Notes under the pieces: model-generated
Databases searched by the model: none
What the model was told of the DNA's origin: nothing
Seen by the model: only the letters and a program-made list of their open reading frames with translations
In this document: positions 37,883-56,511 of the stretch, one piece after another
How the letters are laid out: every line of letters starts with the position of its first letter
Position numbering within the stretch: position 1 is the stretch's first letter
Source: Gammaproteobacteria bacterium
Lineage (GTDB): Bacteria > Pseudomonadota > Gammaproteobacteria > Ga0077536
Length of the DNA: 64,000 nt
Direction of reading: 5' to 3'
Assembly: GCA_024235015.1 (NCBI GenBank)
Contig: JACKNG010000001.1
Span: 450,905-514,904, forward strand
Translations under genes and position numbers: made by a program

Positions 37883-37969
37883 TGTGCGACCATCCATAGC
37901 AAATTCGGCCGCGCACTATACCAGTCGTGCCGCGCGTCAAACGGGTTTGCGTCTCAACGGGGAGCTTGT

Positions 37970-41375: not shown

Positions 41376-44189
41376 TCAGCGCAGGCGCCCGGGCTGGTTG
41401 GCGAGGAAGGCCTTGGTCATGTCGACGTAGTAGCCCACCAGGCGCTGGAGATCGGTCGGCGGACCGAGCCCGTTGCGGTTCAGGGTCCATGCGGTCGGCG
41501 AGGCCAGCGCCTGCGACAGGCTGGCACGCAGCAGGTCGCCGTCGTAGACGTTGACCGAACCGGCCCAGGAATACTGGCCGGTGGCGGTGTTCTCGTTGAC
41601 GGTGAGCCGGTAGACGACGAGGCGCAGGTTGTTCCACGTCCAGCCGGCGTCGTGCACCTGGTCACGCTTGACGATGGTGTAACCGGCAGCCTCGAACAGC
41701 GGCGCGACGGCGGCGTAGACGTCGTCGATGGTGAGGTCGTGGACCTTGAACTTGGGATCGAAGCCCCAGTAGTCGAGGACCACGCGCGGCACCGCGTTCT
41801 CCGCCGCCTCTCTCGCGCGCTGCTCGGCCGCCGCCGCCAGGCGCTCTTCCTCCGCCTTGCGCCGGGCCTGTTCCAGCAGCCGCGTGGCCTCGGCCTCCTG
41901 CGCGGCGCGGCGGCGCTGCTCTTCCGCCTGGCGCGCCTGCTCGGCCTGTGCGCGCATGGCCGCCTGGCGCGCCTCGGCCTCGGCCGCCAGCCGCGCCGTC
42001 TCGGCCTCGCGCCGACGCGTCTCGGTCGCGCTGATGTCGGCAGCCAGCAGCCGCGCCGGTTCCGACTGCGGCAACACGCTCAGCGCCCGGCTGGCGAACT
42101 GGCGCGCCTCGTCGAACTCGTCGCGGCCGAGGGCCTGGCGCGCCATGTCGAGATAGCGGTCGTGGATGCGGCGCATACCGTCACGCGCAGCCACGTTGCC
42201 CGGGTCGAGCCGGCTCACTTCCTGCAGGCGCTCGACCGCGTTGTTGCCGGCCGGCGACGTGAGGCGGTTGGCGGCGATGTCGGCGTCGGCCTGCTCGAGC
42301 AGGGTCGCGATGCTGGCATTGCGCTCGGTTTCGCTGCGCTCCTCGCGCAGGGCGTCGCCGAGCGCGACCACCGCCTTGGCGCCGGCGTCGATGAGGCTGG
42401 CATGGCCATGCCACTCGGCTGCCTCGGCGCGCTCGCCCGCGGCCAGCGCCGCCTGGCCCCGCTCGGCCATGGCGACGGCCAGCGCGGCCAGGCCGGCGGC
42501 GGCGGCGGCATTGTCCGGTTCCAGGATCTGCACCGCACGGTAGCGCGCCAGTGCGTTGTCGGTGCCGGCCCCGACCAGGCGCCCGGCGGCGACGTCGGCG
42601 GCGGCGGCATCGAGGTAGGCCTGGATGCGTTCGGCCTGGCGCGCGCGCTCGGCCTGGCGCGCCGTCGCCGCCGCCACCCGCTCGCGCAGCGCGACCAGGT
42701 CGACGGCATCCTTGGGGATCTGCCCGAGCAGGGCCGAGAGCGCGGCGAAACGCGCGTCGTCGCCGGCTGCGATGGCCTCGTCGAGCGCACTGCCGAGGCG
42801 TTCGCCGACGATACGCAGGCCGTGTGCGGCGTCCTCGTCGCCGGGGCTGTCGGCCCAGGCGCGGGCGTAGAAGGCCAGCGCGCTGCGCCCCTCGGGTTCG
42901 AAGACCTGGCCGACCGAGAGGGCACGGTCGCCCTGCGCGACCAGGCGCTCGGCACGCCCGAACTGCAACAGGTGGGTCGGCAGCAGGCCGGCATACCAGG
43001 CATAACCCCCGCCCCCCGCCACGAGCCCGAGCAGCAGCGCCAGTACCCACGGCCAGCGTCGCCGCGGCGCCGCGTCGGCTGGCGTCGCCGAACGCGGCGC
43101 GCTGCGTGACTCGGACACCCCGCCGCGACGCGAGCGCGTACCGCTCGCCGGTGCCGACGGGCGGCGGATGTCGGGATTGAGTACCGCGCCGTCCGCGATC
43201 ACCTGGGTGGGGTCGACCAGGCCGCTGTAGCGGGTCGCGCCGTCGTCGGCATACACGGTGACGAGCGCGCTTTCGGTCGGCTCGGTCGTGGGACTGGCGA
43301 AGTGGAAGGATTCGCGCCACTCCGCCACGCTCTGCGGGCGCTTCTTCTCGTTGAATTCCAGCGCGTGATCGACGGCGACGAGGAAATCGCGCGAATACTT
43401 GCCGGCACCCAGTTCGGAGGCGGAGATGAACACGTCGCGCTCGGCCTTGAGGATGGCCTCGCTGCGATCGATGGCGGCCATCGGCTGCAGACCGCTGATG
43501 CAGCGGTAGAGCGTGGCGCCGAGCCCGTAGATGTCGGTCCACGGCCCCTGGCGATCGCTCTTCGAGTAGTACTGCTCGAACGGCGCATAGCCCGGCGAGA
43601 CCACGCTGGTCAGGGTGCGTGTCTCTTCGCCCAGCGCCTGGCGCGCCGAGCCGAAGTCGAGCAGCACCGGTTGCCCGCTGTGGTTGATGTAGATGTTGGC
43701 CGGCTTGATGTCGCGATGGATGAAGCCCTGGGCGTGCATCGCCTCGAGCCCGTCGAGCAGGGGCAGGACCAGGGCCACCAGTTCCTGCTGCGGCAGGGTG
43801 CCGCGGCGGTCCAGCACCCCCTGCAGGCTGAGACCGTCCTGGTATTCCATCACCATGTAGGCGGTGTTGTTGGCTTCGAACACCGACATCACCCGCACGA
43901 TGGCCGGATGCTTGAAGCGCGCCAGGGTGCGCGCCTCGGTCAGGAAGCGCTCCAGCCCCCAGCGGTAGCGCTTGTCGTGGGCGCGCGAAGCCGGGTAGAC
44001 GGAGTGGTCGCCGTCGCGCACGGCGAGCTCCATCGGCAGGTATTCCTTGATCGCGACCGGCTGGTCGAGGTTGGTGTCGAAGGCCAGGTAGGTGATGCCG
44101 AAGCCACCCTGGCCGAGCACCTTGTCGATGCGGTACCAGTGCAGGACGTGCCCCGGCTTGAGCGCATTACGCAGCTTGTCCTCGCTCAC
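41376..44189 (-). CDS. Hanks-type Ser/Thr protein kinase with TM helix and periplasmic TPR-like repeats
   Basis: LGQGGFGITY, VAIKEY, HRDIKPANI, LDFG, PGYAPFE, DIYGLG; TM WPWVLALLLGLVAG; three NA..Y..V...P.N..A..GL-type repeats. Confidence 0.92.
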   Translation of the reverse strand: MSEDKLRNALKPGHVLHWYRIDKVLGQGGFGITYLAFDTNLDQPVAIKEYLPMELAVRDGDHSVYPASRAHDKRYRWGLERFLTEARTLARFKHPAIVRVMSVFEANNTAYMVMEYQDGLSLQGVLDRRGTLPQQELVALVLPLLDGLEAMHAQGFIHRDIKPANIYINHSGQPVLLDFGSARQALGEETRTLTSVVSPGYAPFEQYYSKSDRQGPWTDIYGLGATLYRCISGLQPMAAIDRSEAILKAERDVFISASELGAGKYSRDFLVAVDHALEFNEKKRPQSVAEWRESFHFASPTTEPTESALVTVYADDGATRYSGLVDPTQVIADGAVLNPDIRRPSAPASGTRSRRGGVSESRSAPRSATPADAAPRRRWPWVLALLLGLVAGGGGYAWYAGLLPTHLLQFGRAERLVAQGDRALSVGQVFEPEGRSALAFYARAWADSPGDEDAAHGLRIVGERLGSALDEAIAAGDDARFAALSALLGQIPKDAVDLVALRERVAAATARQAERARQAERIQAYLDAAAADVAAGRLVGAGTDNALARYRAVQILEPDNAAAAAGLAALAVAMAERGQAALAAGERAEAAEWHGHASLIDAGAKAVVALGDALREERSETERNASIATLLEQADADIAANRLTSPAGNNAVERLQEVSRLDPGNVAARDGMRRIHDRYLDMARQALGRDEFDEARQFASRALSVLPQSEPARLLAADISATETRRREAETARLAAEAEARQAAMRAQAEQARQAEEQRRRAAQEAEATRLLEQARRKAEEERLAAAAEQRAREAAENAVPRVVLDYWGFDPKFKVHDLTIDDVYAAVAPLFEAAGYTIVKRDQVHDAGWTWNNLRLVVYRLTVNENTATGQYSWAGSVNVYDGDLLRASLSQALASPTAWTLNRNGLGPPTDLQRLVGYYVDMTKAFLANQPGRLR

Positions 44190-44226: not shown

Positions 44227-44619
44227 TCAGTCCTGCGTCTCGTAGCGCGGCTGCTTGGCCTTCACGTAGGTCTGCTTGAGCCGGATCAGCGGCCCGTCGA
44301 AGTGCAGCAGGTCGAGGCCGCGCAGGACGGTGGTGACACCGTCCTTGGTGGTGCGCAGATCCCAGCTGCTCATGACCTTGCCGCTCTCGGCGTCGACGAA
44401 GGTGTCGTCCTCGACGAACTCCATCGTGCCGAAGCGGCCTTCGAACTGCGGCTCGAACGCGGCGCGCACGGCCGCCTTGCCCTCGTTGGGCCGGCCGTTG
44501 AGCTCGTCGTACACGGCATCCTCGCTGAAGAAGGCCATGACGGCATCGAGATCGTTGCGGTTGAACGCGTCGAGAAATTCGCGCGTGCGTGCGTAGAGTT
44601 CCTGGCGGCGATCGGCCAT
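44227..44619 (-). CDS. SnoaL-like/NTF2-family protein
   Basis: FLDAFNRNDLDAVMAFFSEDAVY, RGLDLLHF. Confidence 0.85.
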   Translation of the reverse strand: MADRRQELYARTREFLDAFNRNDLDAVMAFFSEDAVYDELNGRPNEGKAAVRAAFEPQFEGRFGTMEFVEDDTFVDAESGKVMSSWDLRTTKDGVTTVLRGLDLLHFDGPLIRLKQTYVKAKQPRYETQD

Positions 44620-44744: not shown

Positions 44745-45665
44745 TCAGCCGGCCAGGCCGCGGAAACGCAGGTAGTCGGCCGCGGTCTCCGCCGGGCGTT
44801 CGATCATGGGCACGTGACCCATGCGTGGCATCAGGATGCGTTCGGCCTTGGGCAGCAGGCCGGCGACGACGTCGAGACCCGACGGGTGCAACACGCGGTC
44901 GTCGTCGCCCCACGCGACCAGGGTCCGCGTGGCAAGGCCGTCGATACGCCCTTCCAGCGGCACCGGGTCACCGAAGATGTCGGCGAAGATCTTGTGATTG
45001 AAGGCCGCCTCGCGGCGTGCGCGCGCGAGGAGTGGCCGCTTGAACTGCGCCGGCAGGTAGGGCTGACGGGTGAAGCACAGCGCGGCGAGGCGCTCGAACT
45101 GCGCCATGGTGTCGGTCACCAGCGGGTTGTCGCCGCGCTCGATGAGGGCCAGGGTCTCGCTGGTCTCGGCGCCCATGGCGCCGGCCGGGGCGAGCAGCCA
45201 CAGGCTCGCCACGCGCTCCGGATGGCGGGCGGCGAACATCGCCGCGAGGTAACCGCCCATCGAGTTGCCGCCGAGATGAAAGCGGTCGAGGCCGAGGGCA
45301 TCGGCGAAGGCGGCGATACGTTCGAGCTGGGCATCGAGCCCGTAACTCGCCTCCGGGCGCCGCGTGCTGTCGCCGAAACCCGGCAGGTCGGGGGCATAGA
45401 CGTGGCAGTGGCGGGTGAGATGCGGTGCGATCGGCACCCAGTTGTCCTTGTTGGCGCCGAAGCCGTGCAACAGCAGCAGTGGCTCGCCGCGGCCCCCCTC
45501 CAGGTAGGGCACGCGGTGACCGTCGACGCTGACCGCGTCGACGCGCAGGCGCCCGGCGCGCCGCGCCAGGGCCAGCGCGCCGGCCAGCACCACGCCGGGC
45601 ACGAGGTAGTAGAGCGCGACGGCCGCAAGGACCAGCGCGAGCAGGACGTAGAGGATGACGTTCAT
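44745..45665 (-). CDS. Alpha/beta hydrolase (lipase/esterase) with N-terminal membrane anchor
   Basis: LLLHGF, PDLPGFGDS, GNSMGG, GHVPM. Start overlaps the upstream stop. Confidence 0.9.
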   Translation of the reverse strand: MNVILYVLLALVLAAVALYYLVPGVVLAGALALARRAGRLRVDAVSVDGHRVPYLEGGRGEPLLLLHGFGANKDNWVPIAPHLTRHCHVYAPDLPGFGDSTRRPEASYGLDAQLERIAAFADALGLDRFHLGGNSMGGYLAAMFAARHPERVASLWLLAPAGAMGAETSETLALIERGDNPLVTDTMAQFERLAALCFTRQPYLPAQFKRPLLARARREAAFNHKIFADIFGDPVPLEGRIDGLATRTLVAWGDDDRVLHPSGLDVVAGLLPKAERILMPRMGHVPMIERPAETAADYLRFRGLAG

Positions 45666-47389
45666 GCGCCGTCGACGACCGGCAGGATCAACCGCGAGGC
45701 GCGGCCGGCCTCGCGGAACACCCGCTGCAGGGCCGGTTCGAAGCGCGTCGCGGTATGGGCCAGCTCGCCGGTGTTGGGATTGCGGTCGTAGCGCGGGAAA
45801 TCGCTGGACGTCACCAGCACCGCCAGCCGGTGACCGGCGCGGAACACCGCCGCCGTCGCCCACAGGTCGAGGGTGTAGGTGGTCACCGCGCCCGGTTCCA
45901 ACAGGCACCGTTGGCGCCCGTCGCGCAGGCTCGCGCGCACCACGCCGTCGCACAGGTTGACGATGCGACCGTCGGGATGGACGTCGCACAGCTTGACCAT
46001 CCAGTCGGTGTCCGGCCCCGAGGTCGCAGCGACCAGCTCGAAGCTGACCGCCCCGGCGATCTCGAGATCGCGTGCGAGCGGCGCCGAGGTGTAGACCAGC
46101 ACGTCGCGCCGAGCGGCGACCTCGCGCTGGTCGACCGGGCCGGCCGGGTATTGCGGTGGCAGCAGGGTGTTGCCGCCGCGCGTCGGGCACGGCTCGGCCG
46201 GGTCGTAGACGTAGCTGTCGGCGCCCGCCCCCGTCGCCGGCGCCTGCGGCGCGAGGCAACCGCCCGCGTGCAGGTACCACGACGTCGGCCGGTTGGGCGG
46301 CGGCCAGTCACTCGCCTCGCGCCAGCGATTCGGGCCCTGCACGAAGTAGCGCACCGGCGCCTCGTCCTCGCAGCCGTTGGCGGCCTCGTTCAGCCAGCGA
46401 TCGAACCAGCGCAGCTGCAGCTTGGTCAGGTCTTCCTTGAGGTCGAGGAACAGGCCGTTGGCGCGGAAGCCGAAATCGACCTCGCCGACGACGTTGCCGA
46501 ACATGCCGTGCGACCACGGGCCGATGACCAGGCGGCTGTGGCGCCGCGCCTGCTCGCTGCCGGCGTTGGCGCGCATGCCGGCGAAATGCTCGAGGTCGCC
46601 CATCAGCAGCAGGTCGTGCCAGCCGGCGATACTGAGGCTGGGCACCGTGACCTCGGCGTGGCGATCGGAGAACAACACCGAGCCGGTCCAGTCGTCCGGT
46701 GCCGGGTGACGCAGGAATTCGTAGAAGAACGGCACGAAATCATCGGCCTCGGGGTGCGCCGGCGCGAAGCGCTCGAGCGGCAGGGCAGCGAGGATGTCGC
46801 CGAAGGCGTCGATGTCGTCGATGAGCTGGACCAGGGGCGGGCCGAAGCTGGCCGGCTCGGGCCGCGCCCGGATCAGCGCGGCAGGCCCGATCGCGCGCAG
46901 CGCCCACATCGCCAGCGTGCCGAGGTTGAGTGCGCCGCCGCGCCAGAAATGGTTGCGCCAGAAATCGTTGGGCGCCGTGGTCGGCGAGATCGCGCCGAGC
47001 GCGGGGTGCCGGGACAGCGCCGCCAGCCACGAGGTACCGCCCATGTAGGACAGCCCGTAGCAGCCGACGCGCCCGCTCGACCAGGCTTGCGCCGCGCACC
47101 AGGCGATGCTGTCGTGACCGTCGTCGCGCTCGTGCACGTAGGGAAAGAACACCCCGCCCTCCGAGGCCCAGCGCGACCGTACGTCCTGGATGACGACGGC
47201 GAAGCCGGCTGCCGCCGCGCGCACCGGGTCCAGGGTCATGGCCGTGATCGGCCACAGTTCCTTGTTGTAGGGCGTGCGCTGCAACAGCACCGGGTGGCGG
47301 CCGCCGTCGTTGGGACGGTAGACGTCGGCACGCAGGCGCACGCCGTCGCGCAGGGGAATGTCGACGTTCTTCTCGACGATGACGGTCAT
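45662..47389 (-). CDS. CocE/NonD family hydrolase
   Basis: RDGVRLRAD, RTPYNK, QDVRSRWASEG, GLSYMG, GWHD, IGPWSH, SSDFPRYDRNPNTG. Confidence 0.92.
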   Translation of the reverse strand: MTVIVEKNVDIPLRDGVRLRADVYRPNDGGRHPVLLQRTPYNKELWPITAMTLDPVRAAAAGFAVVIQDVRSRWASEGGVFFPYVHERDDGHDSIAWCAAQAWSSGRVGCYGLSYMGGTSWLAALSRHPALGAISPTTAPNDFWRNHFWRGGALNLGTLAMWALRAIGPAALIRARPEPASFGPPLVQLIDDIDAFGDILAALPLERFAPAHPEADDFVPFFYEFLRHPAPDDWTGSVLFSDRHAEVTVPSLSIAGWHDLLLMGDLEHFAGMRANAGSEQARRHSRLVIGPWSHGMFGNVVGEVDFGFRANGLFLDLKEDLTKLQLRWFDRWLNEAANGCEDEAPVRYFVQGPNRWREASDWPPPNRPTSWYLHAGGCLAPQAPATGAGADSYVYDPAEPCPTRGGNTLLPPQYPAGPVDQREVAARRDVLVYTSAPLARDLEIAGAVSFELVAATSGPDTDWMVKLCDVHPDGRIVNLCDGVVRASLRDGRQRCLLEPGAVTTYTLDLWATAAVFRAGHRLAVLVTSSDFPRYDRNPNTGELAHTATRFEPALQRVFREAGRASRLILPVVDGA

Positions 47390-47414
47390 GTGAGGTCCTG
47401 TGTCGGGGGGTGGA

Positions 47415-47801
47415 TCAGGGCTGGTCGCTGGCCTCGTCGGCCGACGCCCGGCGGTCACGCGGCGCGCGCGGGCCACCGGGCGCGAGCAGTTGTTCGATCA
47501 TCGAGCGGTGCAGGTCGACCAGGGCCAGCCAGTTGTGCAGGAACAGCGTGCCGGCCTGGGTCAGTTCGTACATGCGGCGGGCCGGCCCGGACTGGCTGGT
47601 GTCCCACATCGAGCACACCAGGCCCATGTGTTCGAGTTGGCGCAACGCCCGGTACACCGAGCCCTTGTTGTACTCGCCGAGACCGGCCTCGTTGAGCCGC
47701 TGCACGAGTTCGTAGCCGTAGGCCGACCAGCCCTTGAGCATGGCCAGCAGGTGGGCGTTCAGCATGTCGCCGGTCGGGTTGACCGAATGCTCGTCTTTCA
47801 T
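47415..47801 (-). CDS. phaQ: PadR-family repressor, PhaQ-like (PHB-responsive)
   Basis: YGYELVQRL, GSVYRALRQLE, WDTSQSGPARRMYELTQAG closely resemble Bacillus PhaQ as recalled; divergent from a PHA operon. Confidence 0.82.
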   Translation of the reverse strand: MKDEHSVNPTGDMLNAHLLAMLKGWSAYGYELVQRLNEAGLGEYNKGSVYRALRQLEHMGLVCSMWDTSQSGPARRMYELTQAGTLFLHNWLALVDLHRSMIEQLLAPGGPRAPRDRRASADEASDQP

Positions 47802-47846
47802 CGCTCCGTTCCTTTCCGGCGCGTGGCCGGCAAATCGCTGCAGCTA

Positions 47847-47887
47847 CCTATATGCATCTTGCACCTAGGTGTCAAATGTCTTATATT
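47847..47887. promoter_or_regulatory. Overlapping divergent sigma70 promoters with a central palindrome (candidate PhaQ operator)
   Basis: Plus strand TTGCAC (47859-47864)-N17-TATATT (47882-47887). Minus strand TTGACA (47875-47870)-N17-TATAGG (47852-47847). Palindrome TTGCACCTAGGTGtCAA spans both -35 boxes. Confidence 0.8.
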
Positions 47888-47965
47888 TTGCATCGCAGCA
47901 TTTCGACACCCCGTGAATCCGTCGTGCTGCACAGGAAAACCCGTACAACCCAGGAGGTTGCAGAC

Positions 47966-48403
47966 ATGGCCACGACGAAGAAGACCGAGACGACGGTCGA
48001 AATCCCCGCCCAGTTCACCGAATCCGCCAATGCCTACGCCGAGCGCATGCTCAGCGCCCACGAGCGCCTGGCTAACGCCATGGCGACCGCCCGCGCGCGC
48101 AACGCCCGCGTCGCCGACAAGTTCTTCGAGGCCCTGGTCGCCGGCCAGCGTGACGCCCTCGAGCTCAGCCGCGCCATGATCGCGGAGCCGACTGCCTATG
48201 CCAAGAACATGGAAGCCGTCGTGCACTCCATGACCACCGCGCAGGAGCGTGCGCTCGAAGTCGCCAAGACCGTCTATCGCGAACAGTCGGAAGCCACCGG
48301 CGAGATGCGCGAAGCGGCCGGCAAGGCCTTCGAATCGGCCAAGACCTGGATGCCCTCCTTCGACAAGATGAAGGACCTGTGGAGCCCGGTCGCCGCCAAG
48401 TAA
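47966..48403 (+). CDS. Phasin-like alanine-rich helical protein
   Basis: 145 aa, Ala/Glu-rich and predicted all-helical; CAGGAGG RBS; first gene of the PHA operon. Confidence 0.65.
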   Translation: MATTKKTETTVEIPAQFTESANAYAERMLSAHERLANAMATARARNARVADKFFEALVAGQRDALELSRAMIAEPTAYAKNMEAVVHSMTTAQERALEVAKTVYREQSEATGEMREAAGKAFESAKTWMPSFDKMKDLWSPVAAK

Positions 48404-48441
48404 GGTCCCGACCTGCACCTTCACCTGCTCGAGGGACGTCG

Positions 48442-49257
48442 ATGATCCATACCGAAAACGAGCCCATCGATACCGACGAAGACGTCAGTCATCTCGGCTT
48501 TCTCGGCTATGACGACGCCATCGAGCACGTCCTCACGCCCCTGTGGCGCGAGGCCGTATGGGGCTTCGAGTGGGCCCAGCTGCGCCTGAGCCCGGTGTTC
48601 TACGGTATCGGCGTGCCGCACGGTCGCGGCGAGCCGGTACTGGTGATCCCGGGTTTCATGGCCGGCGACCTGCTCATGCTGGAAATGCATCGCTGGCTCA
48701 AGCGCATCGGCTACCGCTCGTCGCTGTCGCGTATTCCGTGGAACAACGACTGCCCGGATCTCACCGGGCGCAAGCTGCTCCACCGCGTACGGCGGCTCTA
48801 CGAGCGCACCGGCAAGCGGGTCAACCTGGTCGGCCACAGCCTCGGCGGCATGCTCGCCAGGAGCATCGTCCAGGAGGTCCCCGAGTACGTCGACCGCGTG
48901 GTCACGCTCGGTTCGCCGTTCCGCTCGCTGGTCAAGGCCCATCCGGCCGTGGTCGGCATCTGGGACAAGCTCAAGCTGGCCCAGGGCGGGCTCATCGGCC
49001 GCAATCTGCATGCGTCCTGCGGCACCGGGCACTGCACCTGCACCTTCGTTCGCAACATGAGCCTGCCGAAGGCGGTCGACGTGCCGCAGTACGCGATCTA
49101 CTCGCGCAACGACGGCGTCGCCGACTGGTCGAGTTGCATCGAGGACGATCCGAGCATGAACCGCGAGGTGTCCTGCACCCATATCGGCATGGCGGTCCAT
49201 GCCGGCGTGTACCGCGAACTGGCGGGCTGCCTGGCGGCCGGCCGCACCGGCGCCTGA
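48442..49257 (+). CDS. Alpha/beta esterase/lipase (GHSLGG)
   Basis: VLVIPGF, LVGHSLGG, VTLGSP, YSRNDGV, CTHIGM (Ser-Asp-His). Confidence 0.85.
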   Translation: MIHTENEPIDTDEDVSHLGFLGYDDAIEHVLTPLWREAVWGFEWAQLRLSPVFYGIGVPHGRGEPVLVIPGFMAGDLLMLEMHRWLKRIGYRSSLSRIPWNNDCPDLTGRKLLHRVRRLYERTGKRVNLVGHSLGGMLARSIVQEVPEYVDRVVTLGSPFRSLVKAHPAVVGIWDKLKLAQGGLIGRNLHASCGTGHCTCTFVRNMSLPKAVDVPQYAIYSRNDGVADWSSCIEDDPSMNREVSCTHIGMAVHAGVYRELAGCLAAGRTGA

Positions 49258-49306
49258 CGCCGGCCTGCAAGAAAAACGAACACCGTACTGATCGGAGGGA
49301 ATCACG

Positions 49307-49696
49307 ATGAGCGATGGAGACGGCCTGGACCCGATGCGCCTGTGGCGCGAATGGTTCGTGAAATCCGAGAAAGCCTGGAGCGATGCCCTGACCGACCTGA
49401 TGGGCGACGAACGCTTCTCCAACGGCATGGGACGCTACGTGCACGAAGCGCTGCACACCCATCGCATGTTCAGCGAGGCCATGGCGCAGTACCTGGCGAA
49501 CCTGAACATTCCGTCGCGGGCGGACATCCTCGACATGAGCGACCGCATGGCGCACATCGAGGACACCCTCAACCAGATCCAGGTCGAGCTGCGCGGCCAG
49601 CGCTCGCAGCTGACCAAGCTGGCGGCCAGCGCACCGGGTGCCGAGGAGCGCAAGCGCCCGGCGCGCACGCGCAAACCCGAAACCAATGACAGCTGA
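49307..49696 (+). CDS. Short PHA synthase partner subunit (PhaR class IV / short PhaE-like)
   Basis: DPMRLWREWFVKSEKAWS..DERFSNGMG..YLANLNIPSRADI..IED followed by coiled coil; directly upstream of and overlapping phaC. Confidence 0.78.
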   Translation: MSDGDGLDPMRLWREWFVKSEKAWSDALTDLMGDERFSNGMGRYVHEALHTHRMFSEAMAQYLANLNIPSRADILDMSDRMAHIEDTLNQIQVELRGQRSQLTKLAASAPGAEERKRPARTRKPETNDS

Positions 49697-50843
49697 TGAC
49701 AGCCGCTCGTTCGCGAGCGCGGGACTGATCGAGAACGCCGCCATGGAACCTGTGACCGCCGAACACCCTGCCGCGGGCGACGACGACAACTTCGACGCCC
49801 ACGTCGAACGCGTCGTCCAGCGCGCCATCCTGCGCAACATACCGGGCCTGAACCTGCCCCAGTCGCAGTCCGAGCTCGACGTCGGCCAGACGCCGAAGGA
49901 ACTCGTCTACAGCAACGAGACGGCGCGGCTGTACCACTACACGCCGATGCTCGACGAGATCTACCGCGTGCCGGTGCTGATCGTGATGTCGCCGGTCGCC
50001 AAGGGCTACATCCTCGACCTCGCCCACGGCCAGAGCCTGATCGAATACCTGCTCATGCAGGGCCACGACGTCTACATGCTCGACTGGGCCGCGCCGCACC
50101 GTGAGCAGAGCCGCCTCGGCCTCGACGAGTACGTGCTCGACCTCGTCGGCGGTTGCGTCGAAGCGGTTGCCCACGACAGTGGCGAGGACGACATCACCCT
50201 TATCGGCTACTGCATGGGCGGCATGCTGTCGCTGATGTACACCGCGCTCAACGTCGGCGGCCCGGTCAGGAACCTGGCCTGCTTCACCACCCCGGTGAAT
50301 GGCGACGGCATGGCCTTGTTCAAGAAGTGGATGACCTCGAAGTCGTTCGACATCGATCGCCTGGTCGACCAGATCGGTAACATCCCGGGCGACATGATCA
50401 ACGGTTCGATCCAGGCTCTGCGGCCGCTGCAGCGCTCGGCCAACCAGATGCGTCTGCTCAACAACGTGCAGGACGACGCCTTCGTCAAGGCCCACCTGCG
50501 CTTCGATCGCTGGGCGGTCGACCAGCTGCCCTTGCCGGGCGAGCTCGCACGCAAGATGGCCAAGGATTTCATCATCGACAACAAGCTCATCCGCGGTGGC
50601 CTGGAACTGCGCGGCAAGCCGGTCGACTTTGCTAATATCCGCGTGCCCTTCCTGCACGTCGCCGCGCTCTACGATCACATCGTGCCCGCAGAAGCGTCAC
50701 GTGACCTGATCGATCTCGTCGGCAGCGAAGACAAGAAGGAGATCGTCATGAAGGGTGGGCACGTGAGCCTGGTCGCCGGCGGCAATGCCATCTTCCGCCT
50801 GTGGCCCCAGCTCGATGCCTGGCTGGCCGCACGCGACCAGTAG
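49686..50843 (+). CDS. phaC: PHA synthase catalytic subunit, small class III/IV type
   Basis: VGQTPKE, YILDL..GQSL..YL...G.DVY..DW, lipase-box IGYCMGG (Cys), YDHIVP (Asp), GGHVSL (His); about 385 aa. Alternative start at 49743. Confidence 0.92.
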   Translation: MTADDSRSFASAGLIENAAMEPVTAEHPAAGDDDNFDAHVERVVQRAILRNIPGLNLPQSQSELDVGQTPKELVYSNETARLYHYTPMLDEIYRVPVLIVMSPVAKGYILDLAHGQSLIEYLLMQGHDVYMLDWAAPHREQSRLGLDEYVLDLVGGCVEAVAHDSGEDDITLIGYCMGGMLSLMYTALNVGGPVRNLACFTTPVNGDGMALFKKWMTSKSFDIDRLVDQIGNIPGDMINGSIQALRPLQRSANQMRLLNNVQDDAFVKAHLRFDRWAVDQLPLPGELARKMAKDFIIDNKLIRGGLELRGKPVDFANIRVPFLHVAALYDHIVPAEASRDLIDLVGSEDKKEIVMKGGHVSLVAGGNAIFRLWPQLDAWLAARDQ

Positions 50844-50884
50844 CTGCGCTGCTTCAACAAAATCCGATTCGAAAGGAGCTCCGC

Positions 50885-51481
50885 ATGTCGCGCGAGGCAC
50901 TCGAACAGGCGCTGAAGGCCTACCCCCTGCAGGTCAAGCTCAACGGGCGTGGCTACACCATTCGCCCGATGACACTGGACGACGGCGACGCGCTGCGGGC
51001 CTTCGCTTCCGCGCTGCCGGCCCACGACCGCCTCTACATGCGTCGCGACCTGACCTCCGCCGCTGGCATGGAATCGTGGCTGGACGACATCCGCGAAGGC
51101 GTCATCTACTCGCTGATCGCGTTGGACGACGACGGCGTGGCCGGTTTCTCGACCGTGCATCTGAACAAGCTCGAGTGGACGCGCCATGTCGCCGACATCC
51201 GCGTCGCCACCGCCGAGCGCACCCGGCGCAGTGGGCTCGGCCGGGTGCTGGTGCGCGAAGGCTTCAACCTCGCGCTCGCACTCGACGTCGAGAAGCTGCT
51301 GGCGCGCATGACCCCCGATCAGAACGGCGCCCGGGTGCTGTTCGAGGAACTGGGCTTCACCCCCGAGGCCCTGCTCAAGGATTACGTCAAGGATCGCGAC
51401 GGCCACTACCACGACATGCTGTTGAAGGGCTGCTCGGTACGCGAGTTCCTCGCCCGCCGCGAGGCCTACGGGCGCAGCTGA
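50885..51481 (+). CDS. GNAT family N-acetyltransferase
   Basis: TIRPMTLDD, RRSGLGRVL, LFEELGF..EALLKDYVKDRDG..HD. GGAG RBS. Confidence 0.85.
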   Translation: MSREALEQALKAYPLQVKLNGRGYTIRPMTLDDGDALRAFASALPAHDRLYMRRDLTSAAGMESWLDDIREGVIYSLIALDDDGVAGFSTVHLNKLEWTRHVADIRVATAERTRRSGLGRVLVREGFNLALALDVEKLLARMTPDQNGARVLFEELGFTPEALLKDYVKDRDGHYHDMLLKGCSVREFLARREAYGRS

Positions 51482-51616: not shown

Positions 51617-52570
51617 ATGCAGTACAAAGACTACTACCAGGTCCTCGGCGTCGCGCGCGACGCCGACGGCGACGCCATCAAGCGCGCCTACCGCAAGCTC
51701 GCGCGCAAGTACCACCCGGACGTCAGCGAGGAGGCCGACGCCGAGGAACGCTTCAAAGAGGTCCAGGAAGCCTACGAGGTCCTCAAGGACCCGGAAAAGC
51801 GCGAAGCCTACGACCGCCTTGGCGCCAACTGGCGCGCCGGCGAGGATTTCACCCCGCCGCCCGACTGGGAGCCGGAGTTCTCGTTCCACGGCGGCGGCTT
51901 CCGCAACGCGGCCGACTTCAGCGACTTCTTCGCCTCGATCTTCGGTGGCGCACCCGGCGGCGGCGCCCGCGGCGGGCGCGGTGCTCACGGCGGCGGTTTC
52001 CAGATGCGCGGCGAAGACCGCCAGGTGCGGGTGCAGATCCGCCTCGAGGACGCCTACGCCGGGGCCACGCGCAGCTTTTCCTTCGTCAGCCCCGAGATCG
52101 ATCCGCGCGGCGAGGTCCGCCAGCAGCAGCGCAACATCAACGTGACCATCCCCAAGGGCGTCGTCGAGGGCCAGCGCATCCGTCTCGCCGGCCAGGGCGG
52201 CCCCGGCTTCGGCGGCGGCCCGGCCGGTGACCTGTTCCTCGAGGTCGAGTTCGAAGCGCACGCGATCTACCACGTCGACGGTCGCGACATCCATCTCGAC
52301 CTGCCCCTGGCACCCTGGGAGGCGGCGCTCGGCGCCAAGGTCAAAGTGCCCACCCTGGGTGGCCAGGTCGAGCTGAACATCCCGCCCAACACCCAGGCCG
52401 GGCGTAAGCTGCGTCTCGGCGGTCGCGGCCTGCCGGGCAAGGTGCCCGGCGACCAGTACGTGACCATACGCATCGTCACCCCGCCGGCGCACGACGACAG
52501 TCAGCGCGAGTTCTACCGCCGCATGGCCGAGGTCATGCCCTACGATCCGCGCGCCAACCTCAAGGCCTGA
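51617..52570 (+). CDS. cbpA: Curved DNA-binding DnaJ-class chaperone CbpA
   Basis: [15 protein letters not shown]-domain, G/F region, DnaJ C-terminal domain without zinc finger; followed by cbpM. Confidence 0.92.
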
Positions 52571-52573
52571 GCC

Positions 52574-52894
52574 ATGACCGACGATTTCACTCCCGGCGCC
52601 GGCGAACTGCTCGCCGACGATCGTCACCTCACCCTGGCCGAGTTGGTCGACGCCAGCGGCGTACGCGTCGAGCTGATCGTGGAAATGGTCAGCCACGACA
52701 TCCTGCGGCCGCACGGCCGTGGCGCCCCGGACTGGCGCTTCCCCGCGCCGGCGCTGGCGCGCGTCCGTCGCGTGGTGCGCCTGCGCCAGGATCTCGAACT
52801 GAACTGGCCCGGGGTGTGCCTGGCGCTCGAGCTACTCGACGAACTCCACGATCTGCGCCGCCGCCACCGCGCCCTCCTCCGCCGCCTCGGCTGA
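52574..52894 (+). CDS. cbpM: Chaperone modulator CbpM (MerR-like)
   Basis: RLRQDLELNWPGVCLALELLDE; 3 nt after cbpA. Confidence 0.9.
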   Translation: MTDDFTPGAGELLADDRHLTLAELVDASGVRVELIVEMVSHDILRPHGRGAPDWRFPAPALARVRRVVRLRQDLELNWPGVCLALELLDELHDLRRRHRALLRRLG

Positions 52895-53965: not shown

Positions 53966-54063
53966 CTTGCGTCGTCCTCCGGGGGGCCGCGGCGGCGCAG
54001 GATGCGCGGCGCCAGCCTGCCGCTATACTAGCCCGCCTTGTCGCAGTTCACGGGGAGGTGAAC

Positions 54064-54807
54064 ATGGCCCGCAAACGCAGCCCGGCGCTCAGCGCGCGCA
54101 GCTACAGCATGCCGGAATTGTCCGAACTCTACGGCGAGCCGCCGTTCCACTACCGCGAGGTGACCCAGCTGCTGGTCGCCTTCGAAACCGACCCCAAGGT
54201 GCTGCGAGCGCTGGTCCCGGCGCCGCTGGTCCCGAACAAGGAAGCGACGATGTTCGTCTCCATCGCCGACTTCCTGTGCTCGGGTTTCGGCCGCTACTAC
54301 GAGATGCACCTGTTCACCCACGCCACCTACAAGCGCCGGCTGGTCAACTTCAGCCTCTACCTGGTGCTCGATAACGACGTCGCCATCTGCGGCGGGCGCG
54401 AAATCTGGGGCTTCCCCAAGAAGCTCGGCCGGCTCGAGATGGACATGACCGACGACGTCGTGCGCGGCACGGTGGAACGCGGCGGCATCCAGCTCGTCGA
54501 CATGGCCGTGCGCATGAAGACCATGGTCGCGCCCGAGGACCTCGGCGGCACCGTCGACTGGGTGGCGCGCAAGTTCATTCCCAGCGTCTCCCTGAAAAGC
54601 CCGCCGGACGTCGACCAGCTCACCCTCACCACGCTGACCAACGTGGTGGTCGACGAGGTCCACGCTGGCCCGGCCACGCTCAGCTTCGGCGCCTCGCCCG
54701 CCGATCGTCTCGCCGACGTGCCCATCGCGCGGGTCACCGGCGGCTGGTTCTTCCAGAGCGAGATGACGCTCGAGGACGGCCAGGTCCTGCACGACTACCT
54801 GGCCTGA
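54064..54807 (+). CDS. Acetoacetate decarboxylase family protein
   Basis: FGRYYE, GGREIWGFPKKL (Schiff-base Lys motif), LHDYL terminus. GGAGG RBS. Confidence 0.9.
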   Translation: MARKRSPALSARSYSMPELSELYGEPPFHYREVTQLLVAFETDPKVLRALVPAPLVPNKEATMFVSIADFLCSGFGRYYEMHLFTHATYKRRLVNFSLYLVLDNDVAICGGREIWGFPKKLGRLEMDMTDDVVRGTVERGGIQLVDMAVRMKTMVAPEDLGGTVDWVARKFIPSVSLKSPPDVDQLTLTTLTNVVVDEVHAGPATLSFGASPADRLADVPIARVTGGWFFQSEMTLEDGQVLHDYLA

Positions 54808-54818
54808 GCCGTTCGGGC

Positions 54819-55658: not shown

Positions 55659-55723
55659 ATGCAAGGCCCGGCCACGGTCCGGGCACCGACCACCCAACCA
55701 TCGATCAAAGGGGGAGCTTACCC

Positions 55724-56479: not shown

Positions 56480-56511
56480 TCGCGCCCGGCAAGCACAGGG
56501 AGAACCAAGGC

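What the first reader, a model, noticed from the sequence alone, without database searches (positions are those of the whole stretch)
47415..51481. Bacillus-style (class IV-like) polyhydroxyalkanoate system in a Gram-negative genome
Seen: PhaQ-like PadR repressor divergent from phasin-like (145 aa), GHSLG esterase, 129-aa synthase partner, small PhaC with an intact Cys-Asp-His triad, and GNAT. Known: proteobacterial PHA loci typically use class I/II single-subunit synthases or class III PhaC with a roughly 40-kDa PhaE, regulated by PhaR(reg)/PhaF/PhaD; the PhaQ-PhaP-PhaR-PhaC set is the Bacillus class IV design. Inference: the partner is far shorter than class III PhaE, and its N-terminus and YLxxxNxPxxxD motif recall B. 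megaterium PhaR. This appears to be a class IV-like system, with extra esterase and acetyltransferase, outside Firmicutes. It is the strongest candidate for an undescribed system in this window. No phaA/phaB is adjacent.
Basis: partly seen in the sequence, partly recalled or inferred. Interest (0 to 1): 0.85.

Follow-up and report, generated by a model that had tools for sequence, protein, structure and literature searches.

The report
PHA synthase operon with Bacillus-type parts
An uncultured activated-sludge gammaproteobacterium carries a conserved, mostly unannotated bioplastic (PHA) storage locus whose repressor, DNA operator and small synthase subunit are related to those of Bacillus, although the synthase forms its own lineage and always comes with an acetyltransferase.

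Summary
In detail: all six genes are present as described.

For a Bacillus (class IV) affinity:
- The 129-aa partner is a true homologue of the N-terminal module of Bacillus PhaR (hhalign 99.1%, E 1.3e-18). It has no PhaE hit.
- The PadR gene is PhaQ-like. It shares 41-44% identity with Priestia megaterium PhaQ.
- An operator-like palindrome, CTAnnTG-N5-9-CAnnTAG, sits upstream of the repressor gene in the window, in 15 related loci and in P. megaterium.

Against membership of class IV:
- All three class IV-type proteins score below NCBI's curated cut-offs.
- PhaC sits in its own 97%-supported clade. Its sister link to Bacillus PhaC has only 39% support.
- The partner lacks PhaR's C-terminal half. 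It equals the module that PhaR shares with the C-terminus of PhaE.
- The 145-aa helical protein matches no phasin family.
- There is no phaB in the operon.
- A GNAT (51 of 54 related loci) and a lipase-like esterase (50 of 54) are conserved additions.

Partner and PhaC are neighbours in all 54 related species-level genomes, all of them MAGs and mostly Gammaproteobacteria. They are adjacent on one strand in 53. A core version occurs on Novosphingobium aromaticivorans pNL2.

I found no published description. My verdict is a new variant of two-component PHA synthase systems. Function is inferred, not shown.

The parts
44745..45680 (-). Alpha/beta hydrolase of 311 aa with a hydrophobic N-terminal helix. 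It is the last gene of the PadR-side operon and a candidate PHA or oligomer hydrolase.
   Evidence: Abhydrolase_1 scores 133 bits. There are weak hits to intracellular scl-PHA depolymerase NF050089 (81 bits, below its cut-off) and TIGR02240 (40 bits). It is co-conserved on the PadR strand in 36 of 54 loci. Its start overlaps the stop of the upstream gene by 19 nt.
45662..47392 (-). CocE/NonD-family serine hydrolase, 576 aa. Its start lies 22 nt downstream of the PadR stop.
   Evidence: TIGR00976 scores 431 bits, with Peptidase_S15 and PepX_C domains. It is conserved next to the locus in 35 of 54 loci, including rearranged ones (L047, L049, L050). Relatives L065, L067 and L068 have a class II-like PhaC at this position instead.
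47415..47801 (-). PhaQ-like PadR-family repressor, 128 aa.
   Evidence: Pfam PadR scores 65.5 bits. The best NCBIfam model is TIGR02719 PhaQ at 86.9 bits, below its 139.35 cut-off. It is 41% identical over 95 aa to P. megaterium PhaQ by BLASTP, and 44% over 89 aa by tblastn.
47848..47868 (.). 21-bp palindrome CTATATGCATCTTGCACCTAG, the putative PhaQ-type operator. It overlaps two candidate divergent sigma-70 promoters. On the minus strand: TTGACA (47875-47870), 17 nt, TATAGG (47852-47847). On the plus strand: TTGCAC (47859-47864), 17 nt, TATATT (47882-47887).
   Evidence: It is the only match in the 64 kb; 0.02 are expected by chance. The pattern CTAnnTG-N5-9-CAnnTAG occurs 17 times in 856 kb of window plus loci. 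Every occurrence is within about 110 bp upstream of the PadR/PhaQ gene, including P. megaterium phaQ (CTATATGTGTAATTTACACCTAG). The promoter hexamers are my reading. The scan tool did not call them.
47966..48403 (+). 145-aa all-helical orphan protein, first gene of the plus-strand operon. It is a candidate phasin or granule coat protein.
   Evidence: It has no Pfam, NCBIfam or PDB match, either alone or as a 14-member family. AlphaFold2 predicts two long helices, 15-73 and 75-144, broken at the invariant Pro75, with pLDDT 74. It is present in 46 loci. Its 300-nt bin is the only one above 4x depth in all three metatranscriptome runs.
48442..49257 (+). Cytoplasmic lipase-family alpha/beta hydrolase, 271 aa. 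It has the GHSLGG nucleophile elbow, Asp224 and His247, and a conserved Cys/His cluster.
   Evidence: It hits Lipase_2, PGAP1 and Abhydrolase_1 and family I lipases in the PDB around the nucleophile elbow. G131, H132, L134, G135, G136, D224, H247, C193, C198 and C200 are invariant, and S133 and H197 are at least 90% conserved, in 51 homologues. The AlphaFold2 model has pLDDT 80.5, and Foldseek finds only generic lipases and esterases. It is adjacent in 50 of 54 loci and has a homologue beside the Novosphingobium core.
49307..49696 (+). 129-aa small synthase partner. It is a minimal PhaR/PhaE-module protein with a conserved basic C-terminal P-x-R-T-R-K-P tail.
   Evidence: TIGR02132 phaR_Bmeg gives E 3.1e-11 over residues 2-106. 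There is no PhaE hit at E of 1 or below. hhalign against the Bacillus-type PhaR family gives 99.1%, E 1.3e-18, over residues 1-80. A profile of the family retrieves Bacillus-type PhaR relatives. It neighbours PhaC in 54 of 54 loci.
49743..50843 (+). Short class III/IV-type PHA synthase catalytic subunit PhaC, 366 aa, with Cys157, Asp311 and His340.
   Evidence: TIGR01836 scores 309.4 bits against a 365.3 cut-off, and PhaC_N scores 37 bits. It aligns to solved class I PhaCs with the triad conserved. The triad columns are 98% conserved across 64 sequences. It is 37% identical to P. megaterium PhaC, 36% to Hfx. mediterranei, 34% to Rhizobium and 48% to Novosphingobium pNL2. Its own clade has 97% bootstrap support.
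50882..51481 (+). GNAT-family acyl-CoA N-acyltransferase, 199 aa, directly downstream of PhaC.
   Evidence: Acetyltransf_1, _3, _4 and _7 hit, as do uncharacterised PDB GNATs. It follows PhaC in 51 of 54 related loci and in Novosphingobium pNL2. It is absent from the two Planctomycetota loci whose PhaC groups with Bacillus. RNA-derived contigs meet and overlap across the PhaC-GNAT junction.

Best explanation
This is a divergently organised polyhydroxyalkanoate (PHA) granule locus of an uncultured activated-sludge gammaproteobacterium.

The plus-strand operon has five genes:
- a helical 145-aa protein, the presumed granule coat or phasin;
- a cytoplasmic lipase-like esterase;
- a 129-aa subunit;
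- a 366-aa PhaC;
- a GNAT.

PhaC and the 129-aa protein most likely form a two-component PHA synthase. PhaC supplies the Cys157-Asp311-His340 catalytic centre. The small protein is essentially just the conserved module shared by the N-terminus of Bacillus PhaR and the C-terminus of class III PhaE. It would play the activating or assembly role that PhaR and PhaE play for their PhaCs.

The minus-strand operon encodes a PhaQ-like PadR repressor followed by a CocE/NonD hydrolase and a helix-anchored alpha/beta hydrolase.

The repressor most likely binds the 21-bp palindrome that overlaps both divergent promoters. By analogy with P. megaterium PhaQ, it would be titrated away once polymer appears. 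Here that would derepress the coat protein, the synthase itself and the hydrolases.

The three hydrolases are candidates for polymer or oligomer mobilisation. The GNAT's role is unknown; it may acylate a granule protein or use the acyl-CoA pool.

Shown here: gene content, homologies, conserved catalytic residues, synteny, the shared palindrome, and the presence of RNA-derived contigs.

Inferred: enzyme activity, dependence on the partner, repressor-operator binding, granule association, and the roles of the hydrolases and the GNAT.
For: -
- The PhaC triad aligns with solved class I PhaCs and with P. megaterium PhaC.
- The partner is homologous to PhaR. A profile built only from the gammaproteobacterial partners retrieves Bacillus-type PhaR relatives. 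Of its top 150 hits, 129 match the PhaR model and 75-84 match the PhaE models.
- PhaR residues 10-97 match the last roughly 90 positions of the PhaE models. The haloarchaeal PhaE C-terminus reciprocally matches the PhaR model.
- Partner and PhaC are neighbours in 54 of 54 species-level genomes. The full PadR, helical protein, esterase, partner, PhaC, GNAT order recurs in about 45.
- The PhaQ-like regulator is 41-44% identical to P. megaterium PhaQ.
- The palindrome class is found 17 times in 856 kb, always just upstream of the regulator gene, including in P. megaterium.
- Related loci place a class II-like PhaC and a bona fide PhaZ (TIGR02240, 253 bits, above its cut-off) downstream of the same PadR.
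- Metatranscriptome contigs cover the locus, highest on the 145-aa gene. They span the 145-aa/esterase and esterase/partner junctions and overlap across PhaC/GNAT.
Against: - There is no experimental evidence for this clade.
- PhaC scores below the curated class III/IV cut-off (309 against 365 bits). PGAP names its relatives only 'alpha/beta fold hydrolase'.
- No phaA or phaB lies in the 64 kb, so the monomer supply is unknown.
- The 145-aa protein has no similarity to any phasin family, and its fold search was uninformative.
- Three hydrolases and an invariably linked GNAT are unusual for a simple storage operon. They could indicate a different product or process.
- The RNA evidence comes from low-depth assembled contigs that may include DNA.
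- My tree is neighbour-joining and lacks the canonical Allochromatium and cyanobacterial class III enzymes.
- The published PhaQ footprint could not be read, so identity of the palindrome with the real PhaQ site is unverified.
Confidence: 0.7

Rival explanations
1. It is simply a class III PhaEC synthase with a truncated, minimal PhaE. The Bacillus resemblance reflects only the shared ancestry of PhaE and PhaR, so no special class IV relationship exists.
For: - The partner equals the module that PhaR shares with the PhaE C-terminus.
- Close relatives of the partner (Novosphingobium, L068, L051, L052, L046) weakly hit the last roughly 95 positions of the PhaE models.
- RefSeq names the Novosphingobium protein PhaE.
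- Short PhaEs of 182-219 aa exist in haloarchaea and Rhizobium.
- PhaC identity to Bacillus (37%) barely exceeds identity to haloarchaeal class III (36%).
Against: - The window partner hits the PhaR model at E 3e-11 and no PhaE model at E of 1 or below.
- All small partners tested score better on PhaR than on PhaE.
- Alignment with PhaR is colinear from residue 1, at 99.1%.
- The regulator and its palindrome are of the PhaQ type known only from Bacilli.
- PhaC does not group with the PhaE-associated Rhizobium or haloarchaeal enzymes.
Confidence: 0.2
2. The PhaC-like enzyme, GNAT and esterases make or remodel something other than storage PHA. Examples are short oligo-hydroxyalkanoate conjugates, or an acyl transfer or hydrolysis reaction. 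On this view the PhaC homologue is an acyltransferase or hydrolase, not a polymerase.
For: - PhaC is below the family cut-off.
- A GNAT is linked in 51 of 54 loci and three hydrolases are co-conserved.
- No phaAB is nearby.
- The supposed phasin matches no phasin family.
Against: - The triad, PhaC_N segment and conserved PhaC residues, such as the Trp aligned at position 257, are retained.
- A PhaR/PhaE-type partner is known only as a synthase subunit.
- The regulator is of the PhaQ type.
- Relatives place a class II-like PhaC and a PhaZ in the same divergon.
Confidence: 0.07
3. The locus is a recent horizontal acquisition from Firmicutes, not a native proteobacterial system.
For: G+C is slightly lower at 48-52 kb (0.66) than the window mean of about 0.70. 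The PhaQ, operator and PhaR-module affinities point to Bacilli.
Against: - The locus is conserved with the same flanking genes across dozens of gammaproteobacterial species, at identities of 60-90% that fall gradually with distance.
- G+C of 66% is far from Bacillus values.
- PhaC is only 37% identical to Bacillus PhaC and forms its own deep clade.
Confidence: 0.03

Closest known systems
Class IV PHA synthase system of Bacillus/Priestia (phaQ-phaP and phaR-phaB-phaC; reference locus L056, P. megaterium)
   Same: - Two-component synthase: a roughly 40-kDa PhaC with a GYCMGG lipase box and Cys-Asp-His triad, plus a small non-catalytic subunit whose first roughly 80-105 residues are homologous, including the Y-L-x3-N-x-P-x3-D motif.
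- A PadR-family PhaQ-type repressor with a CTAnnTG...CAnnTAG palindrome upstream of its own gene.
- The repressor gene is linked to the gene for a small helical protein.
   Different: - PhaC forms a separate clade and scores below the family cut-off.
- The partner is 129 aa against 199 aa. It lacks the C-terminal coiled-coil half of PhaR and has a basic PxRTRKP tail.
- There is no phaB.
- The helical protein is unrelated to PhaP_Bmeg.
- The repressor is divergent from the coat and synthase operon rather than co-transcribed with phaP, so the synthase itself would fall under PhaQ-type control.
- The palindrome spacing is 21 bp against 23 bp.
- There are extra conserved genes: an esterase, a GNAT, a CocE/NonD hydrolase and an alpha/beta hydrolase.
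- The host is a high-G+C Gram-negative bacterium.
Class III PHA synthase PhaEC (Allochromatium, cyanobacteria; short-PhaE versions in Haloferax mediterranei, L058, and Rhizobium johnstonii pRL10, L061)
   Same: A short PhaC plus an adjacent upstream partner gene. The partner carries the same conserved roughly 90-residue module, which lies at the C-terminus in PhaE.
   Different: - The window partner does not hit the PhaE models and has none of the N-terminal PhaE sequence.
- PhaC does not group with the PhaE-linked enzymes available to me.
- The regulator is different.
- A GNAT and an esterase are linked.
Novosphingobium aromaticivorans DSM 12444 plasmid pNL2 cluster SARO_RS18625-18640 (L055)
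   Same: The same core in a cultured organism. It comprises a 121-aa partner (34% identical), a PhaC (48%), a GNAT (40%) and a homologue of the esterase (32%). The PhaC falls in the same 97%-supported clade.
   Different: It has no PadR or PhaQ and no 145-aa helical protein. A LuxR-type regulator lies upstream. It is embedded among aromatic and fatty-acid catabolic genes. It is annotated only as 'PhaE', 'alpha/beta fold hydrolase' and 'GNAT'. I found no experimental study.

Membership tests
Class IV PHA synthase system (Bacillus PhaRC with PhaQ/PhaP) | PhaC of about 40 kDa with a lipase-box Cys and a Cys-Asp-His triad | tested here: met
   The protein has 366 aa, the GYCMGG box, and Cys157, Asp311 and His340. 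These align with Cys151, Asp306 and His335 of P. megaterium PhaC.
Class IV PHA synthase system (Bacillus PhaRC with PhaQ/PhaP) | PhaC groups with Bacillus class IV PhaC | tested here: inconclusive
   In a neighbour-joining tree (360 columns, 100 bootstraps), the window clade has 97% support. Bacillus plus two Planctomycetota sequences have 81%. The sister relation between the two has only 39%.
Class IV PHA synthase system (Bacillus PhaRC with PhaQ/PhaP) | PhaR subunit (NCBIfam TIGR02132 equivalog, cut-off 148.4 bits; about 200 aa with a C-terminal coiled-coil half) | tested here: not met
   The score is 43.6 bits. Homology is real but limited to the N-terminal module (hhalign 99.1% over residues 1-80). 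The protein has only 129 aa. P. megaterium PhaR scores 372.9 bits.
Class IV PHA synthase system (Bacillus PhaRC with PhaQ/PhaP) | PhaQ repressor (TIGR02719 equivalog, cut-off 139.35 bits) | tested here: not met
   The score is 86.9 bits, the best-scoring model but below its cut-off. Identity to P. megaterium PhaQ is 41-44%. A shared palindrome type lies upstream of both genes. This makes it PhaQ-like, not an equivalog.
Class IV PHA synthase system (Bacillus PhaRC with PhaQ/PhaP) | PhaP_Bmeg-type phasin (PF09602) | tested here: not met
   There is no hit for the 145-aa protein or for 14 family members at E of 1 or below. P. megaterium PhaP scores 229 bits.
Class IV PHA synthase system (Bacillus PhaRC with PhaQ/PhaP) | phaB located between phaR and phaC (phaRBC operon) | tested here: not met
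   The partner stop (49696) and the PhaC start (49743) are 46 nt apart. The nearest SDRs lie more than 4 kb away and are 33-35% identical to PhaB.
Class IV PHA synthase system (Bacillus PhaRC with PhaQ/PhaP) | PhaC activity depends on PhaR | not testable with these tools
   This needs co-expression and enzyme assays.
Class III PHA synthase (PhaEC) | PhaC reaching the TIGR01836 cut-off (365.3 bits) | tested here: not met
   The window PhaC scores 309.4 bits and Novosphingobium 293.5. By comparison, P. megaterium scores 534, Hfx. mediterranei 418 and R. johnstonii 391.
Class III PHA synthase (PhaEC) | PhaE subunit (PF09712 / TIGR01834) | tested here: not met
   The window partner has no hit at E of 1 or below (Pfam) or 0.01 or below (NCBIfam). 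Only related small partners weakly match the last roughly 95 profile positions.
PadR-family transcriptional regulators | PadR winged-helix domain (PF03551, cut-off 27 bits) | tested here: met
   65.5 bits over residues 18-88.
GNAT acyltransferases | Acetyltransf_1 domain (PF00583, cut-off 20.7 bits) | tested here: met
   31.7 bits. An RRSGLGR acyl-CoA-binding motif is visible in the sequence.

The most novel reading that the evidence does not exclude
This clade is a distinct, unrecognised class of two-component PHA synthase. Its features are:
- a minimal roughly 125-135-aa PhaR/PhaE-module subunit;
- its own PhaC lineage;
- an obligatorily linked GNAT;
- PhaQ-type control of the synthase itself.

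It is widespread in uncultured Gammaproteobacteria of activated sludge, fresh water and sea water, with relatives in Alphaproteobacteria, Binatia and Myxococcota. Current annotation cut-offs and phaC surveys miss it. It also supplies the link showing that PhaE and PhaR are one protein family.
Probability: 0.35. Interest if true: 0.75.

Novelty: new variant of a known kind. Interest (0 to 1): 0.6.

Why it matters
- PHA synthase classes I-IV are the framework used for annotation, for primer and HMM surveys of PHA producers, and for enzyme engineering. Class IV, PhaR and PhaQ are treated as Bacillus-specific.
- This locus shows that the PhaQ repressor with its operator type, and the PhaR module, also occur in a large group of uncultured Gram-negative bacteria. 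There they are joined to a PhaC lineage that falls below the curated cut-offs, so the genes are labelled 'alpha/beta fold hydrolase' and 'hypothetical protein'.
- Carbon-storage potential in wastewater and aquatic Gammaproteobacteria may therefore be underestimated.
- The 129-aa partner is a natural minimal version of the synthase accessory subunit. It marks which part of PhaR and PhaE is likely to matter for PhaC activation, and that is directly testable.
- The invariably linked GNAT and the lipase-like esterase are new candidate players in granule biology.

Tried and rejected
- Phasin assignment. Pfam, NCBIfam and PDB sequence searches of the 145-aa protein, alone and as a 14-member family, gave nothing. 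Foldseek on the AlphaFold2 model returned only generic helical hairpins with E above 0.2. 'Phasin' therefore rests on position, size, helicity and RNA coverage.
- Esterase function. I tested the idea that it is a PhaZ7-like depolymerase. The PDB sequence search and Foldseek returned generic family I lipases and esterases with TM about 0.5, and no PHA depolymerase. The function is not resolved.
- GNAT function. Only uncharacterised or generic GNAT matches appeared.
- Promoter and terminator scan. It found no promoter in the divergent intergenic region and no convincing terminators. The promoters I propose are hand-read.
- Canonical class III reference sequences (Allochromatium, cyanobacteria). 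The tree lacks them.
- Lee et al. 2004, the PhaQ footprint paper, is not held.
- Literature searches for this arrangement found nothing relevant. I searched for class IV or PhaQ outside Bacilli, Pseudohongiella with PHA, Novosphingobium with PhaE, and activated sludge with class III. The library covers open-access papers only.
- Rfam found no RNA family in the window.
- Recent horizontal transfer from Firmicutes is rejected on the grounds of synteny, identity level and G+C content.

Full report
**1. What is there**

- A PadR-family regulator lies on the minus strand at 47415-47801 (128 aa).
- A 164-bp intergenic region follows.
- Five genes then run on the plus strand:
  - a 145-aa ORF at 47966-48403, with an AGGAGG ribosome-binding site 8 nt upstream;
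  - a 271-aa alpha/beta hydrolase with GHSLGG at 48442-49257;
  - a 129-aa ORF at 49307-49696;
  - a 366-aa PhaC, whose true start is the ATG at 49743 and which ends at 50843;
  - a 199-aa GNAT at 50882-51481.

Two more hydrolase genes follow the PadR gene on its own strand. A CocE/NonD-family hydrolase (45662-47392) starts 22 nt after the PadR stop. A 311-aa alpha/beta hydrolase with a hydrophobic N-terminal helix (44745-45680) overlaps the CocE/NonD stop by 19 nt.

**2. Identity of the parts**

*PhaC.* It matches TIGR01836 (class III/IV PhaC) at 309.4 bits, below the 365.3 cut-off. It also has the PhaC_N segment. It aligns to solved class I PhaCs with the nucleophile Cys in GYCMGG and with the catalytic Asp and His conserved. 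In a 64-sequence alignment, Cys157, Asp311 and His340 fall in columns that are 98% conserved. They coincide with Cys151, Asp306 and His335 of P. megaterium PhaC.

*The 129-aa protein.* It has no Pfam family. It does match NCBIfam TIGR02132, the Bacillus PhaR subunit, at E 3.1e-11 over residues 2-106 of both protein and model. That is 43.6 bits, below the 148.4 cut-off.

*The PadR protein.* Its best model is TIGR02719 (PhaQ), at 86.9 bits against a 139.35 cut-off.

*The 145-aa protein.* It matches nothing.

**3. Direct comparison with reference loci**

A tblastn of PhaC against plasmid records supplied annotated reference clusters:

- P. megaterium phaP-phaQ / phaR-phaB-phaC (L056);
- Haloferax mediterranei phaP-phaE-phaC (L058);
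- Rhizobium johnstonii pRL10 phaE-phaC (L061);
- an unstudied cluster on Novosphingobium aromaticivorans pNL2 (L055).

Pairwise identities:

| Window protein | Reference | Identity |
|---|---|---|
| PadR | P. megaterium PhaQ | 41% over 95 aa (44% over 89 aa by tblastn) |
| Partner | PhaR | 28% over residues 7-78 of both |
| Partner | 121-aa Novosphingobium protein | 34% |
| PhaC | P. megaterium | 37% |
| PhaC | Hfx. mediterranei | 36% |
| PhaC | Rhizobium | 34% |
| PhaC | Novosphingobium | 48% |
| GNAT | Novosphingobium GNAT | 40% |
| Esterase | Novosphingobium hydrolase | 32% |
| 145-aa protein | PhaP of P. megaterium or Haloferax | none |

**4. The partner is the shared PhaR/PhaE module**

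Profile-profile comparison of 23 gammaproteobacterial partners (A1) with eight Bacillus-type PhaR proteins (A3) gives 99.1% probability and E 1.3e-18. The alignment is colinear from residue 1 to about 80.

A profile built only from the gammaproteobacterial proteins finds 665 representative clusters at E of 1e-3 or below among 1.84 billion proteins. Most are 120-150 aa long. Of the top 150:

- 129 match the PhaR model and 75-84 match the PhaE models;
- 14 are closest to P. megaterium PhaR.

The two subunit types also match each other's models:

- P. megaterium PhaR residues 10-97 match the last roughly 90 positions of the PhaE models (TIGR01834 positions 231-318 of 324; PF09712 positions 229-299 of 311).
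- The Haloferax PhaE C-terminus reciprocally matches the PhaR model.

PhaR and PhaE therefore share one module, N-terminal in PhaR and C-terminal in PhaE. The window protein is essentially that module plus a conserved basic P-x-R-T-R-K-P tail.

The window protein and every small partner I tested from other phyla score better on PhaR than on PhaE. N67, P69 and R71 are the only nearly invariant positions across the 150 representatives.

**5. PhaC phylogeny**

I built a neighbour-joining tree from 360 columns with 100 bootstraps, rooted on a class I enzyme.

- The window, the MAG homologues, Novosphingobium and two divergent MAGs form a clade with 97% support.
- The Bacillus and Priestia class IV enzymes group with two Planctomycetota MAG enzymes at 81%.
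- The sister relation between these two clades has only 39% support.
- The PhaE-linked Rhizobium and haloarchaeal enzymes fall outside.

On TIGR01836, Bacillus (534 bits), Haloferax (418) and Rhizobium (391) exceed the cut-off. The window (309) and Novosphingobium (293) do not. The window PhaC is therefore its own lineage within the short-PhaC group, not a member of class IV.

One limitation: no Allochromatium or cyanobacterial class III sequence was available to me.

**6. Conservation**

A scan of one genome per GTDB species with two partner peptides found 54 loci.

- All are MAGs, mostly labelled Gammaproteobacteria. They include Pseudohongiellaceae and Porticoccaceae.
- A few are labelled Binatia, Myxococcota, Deltaproteobacteria or Planctomycetota.
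- The scan needed exact peptide patterns, so divergent partners such as the Novosphingobium one were missed.

Counts by tblastn:

| Feature | Loci out of 54 |
|---|---|
| Partner and PhaC as neighbours | 54 (adjacent on the same strand in 53) |
| GNAT | 51 |
| Esterase | 50 |
| 145-aa gene | about 46 |
| PadR | 32 |
| CocE/NonD hydrolase | 35 |
| 311-aa hydrolase | 36 |

Public names for these proteins are 'alpha/beta fold hydrolase', 'polyhydroxyalkanoate synthase' (JGI), 'hypothetical protein' and 'lipase family'.

In three further relatives (L065, L067, L068) the genes downstream of PadR differ. There they are a 554-aa class II-like PhaC (TIGR01839, 705 bits) and a poly(3-hydroxyalkanoate) depolymerase that passes its curated cut-off (TIGR02240, 253.4 against 250.6 bits). 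This independently ties the PadR divergon to PHA metabolism.

**7. Regulation**

The PadR/145-aa intergenic regions of 28 loci share a palindrome. In the window it is CTATATGCATCTTGCACCTAG at 47848-47868. This is the only match in 64 kb, where 0.02 are expected by chance.

The relaxed pattern CTAnnTG-N5-9-CAnnTAG occurs 17 times in 856 kb of window plus fetched loci. Every occurrence lies within about 110 bp upstream of the PadR/PhaQ start. One of these is P. megaterium phaQ, with CTATATGTGTAATTTACACCTAG. Its outer heptamers, CTATATG and CACCTAG, are identical to the window's. Its spacing is 2 bp longer.

Reading the sequence, the palindrome overlaps two candidate promoters:

- minus strand: TTGACA, 17 nt, TATAGG;
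- plus strand: TTGCAC, 17 nt, TATATT.

The scan tool did not call either, so these are my inference.

P. megaterium PhaQ is described as an autoregulated repressor that responds to PHB and binds granules (review PMC9049629). By analogy, the window's regulator probably represses both operons until polymer appears. Unlike in Bacillus, the synthase genes lie in the regulated operon. I could not read the original footprinting paper.

**8. The accessory genes**

*The 145-aa protein.*
- Its family has invariant R45, R48, Q61, P75, Q93, R95, K101 and Y104.
- It has no match in Pfam or the PDB.
- AlphaFold2, run on the single sequence, predicts two long helices broken at Pro75, with pLDDT 74.
- Foldseek gave nothing significant.
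- 'Phasin-like' therefore remains an inference from position, size, helicity and RNA coverage.

*The esterase.*
- It has no signal peptide.
- It resembles family I lipases around the nucleophile elbow.
- Its G-H-S-L-G-G motif, D224, H247 and a Cys/His cluster (C193, H197, C198, C200) are invariant or nearly so in 51 homologues.
- Its model (pLDDT 80.5) matches only generic lipases and esterases.

*The GNAT.* It is a typical small GNAT with no specific assignment.

**9. Habitat and expression**

The exact sequence is present in about 20 activated-sludge and wastewater metagenome runs, and partly in three wastewater metatranscriptomes.

In those three RNA runs, the bin covering the 145-aa gene is the only one above 4x depth in all of them. 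RNA-derived contigs span the junctions between the 145-aa gene and the esterase (47952-48711) and between the esterase and the partner (48878-49392). Two overlapping contigs cover the PhaC/GNAT junction (50600-51028). These are low-depth assembled contigs and may contain DNA, so this is supportive evidence only.

**10. Other checks**

- The window holds no second PhaC, no PhaE and no PhaA. Two SDRs are only 33-35% identical to PhaB.
- An LpxR gene at 36821-37897 fits a Gram-negative envelope.
- Literature searches found PhaQ and class IV only in Bacillus and Priestia. A 2019 survey found PhaR restricted to Bacilli plus two Clostridia. Nothing describes this arrangement. The library holds only open-access papers.

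**11. Verdict**

The regulator, its operator type and the partner module are closer to the Bacillus class IV system than to class III. However, no class IV-specific curated model is met, and PhaC is a separate lineage. The partner is a minimal PhaR/PhaE module, the coat protein is unrelated to Bacillus PhaP, phaB is absent, and a GNAT and an esterase are conserved additions.

I rate it a new variant of two-component PHA synthase systems. It is widespread among uncultured Gram-negative bacteria, effectively unannotated and experimentally untested.

Noticed in passing
L065:2830-4494, L067:2830-4494, L068:2855-4519 (minus strand) and the next gene downstream: In some relatives the PadR-side operon carries a 554-aa class II-like PhaC (TIGR01839, 705 bits) and a depolymerase that passes the TIGR02240 cut-off. 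The window has a CocE/NonD hydrolase and an alpha/beta hydrolase at those positions. One divergon thus holds two different synthase types.
   Followed up: partly
L053:8001-9460 and L054:1176-2635: Two Planctomycetota MAGs have a small PhaR-module partner next to a PhaC that groups with Bacillus class IV PhaC (81% bootstrap). Their PhaC scores 341 bits on TIGR01836, and no GNAT follows it. These may be closer 'class IV outside Firmicutes' cases than the window itself.
   Followed up: partly
window 54058-56480: An acetoacetate decarboxylase-family gene (ADC, 161 bits), a class I methyltransferase and an SDR lie 2.6-5 kb downstream of the locus. They may relate to ketone-body or 3-hydroxybutyrate metabolism. 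I did not test whether they are co-conserved with the locus.
   Followed up: no
window 47887-47901 and the same position in 22 of 28 related intergenic regions: A second conserved motif, TGCAnnGCA[A/G]CA (TGCATCGCAGCA in the window), lies about 20 nt downstream of the palindrome, around the predicted plus-strand transcription start. Its role is unknown.
   Followed up: partly
window 48442-49257 (esterase residues C104, C193, H197, C198, C200, C232): An invariant Cys/His cluster (C-x3-H-C-x-C plus two more Cys) lies in a region the model predicts with low confidence (residues 160-200). It may be a metal site or a redox switch in a cytoplasmic lipase-like enzyme.
   Followed up: no
window 49658-49678 (partner residues 118-124) and homologues: A conserved basic C-terminal motif, P-x-R-T-R-K/R-P, occurs in small partners from several phyla, including Novosphingobium. 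P. megaterium PhaR ends in QPARK. Its function is unknown.
   Followed up: no
window 51617-52894: A CbpA (curved-DNA-binding DnaJ homologue) and CbpM chaperone-modulator pair lies directly downstream of the GNAT. CbpA is found there in only 12 of 54 loci (the closest relatives) and CbpM in 8, so the pair is probably not part of the system.
   Followed up: yes
window 41376-44189 (minus strand): A 937-aa Ser/Thr protein kinase has a transmembrane segment and a long Ala/Arg/Glu-rich repetitive C-terminal region. It lies upstream of a SnoaL-like protein at 44227-44619.
   Followed up: no
L048:8378-9358 and 10093-11148: A Myxococcota MAG has two short PhaC homologues flanking the GNAT, on opposite strands, and a rearranged PadR, esterase and helical-protein set.
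   Followed up: no
window 36821-37897 and 57597-57693: An LpxR lipid A 3'-O-deacylase gene is a marker of a Gram-negative outer membrane. The window's only RNA gene is a tRNA-Leu (GAG).
   Followed up: yes
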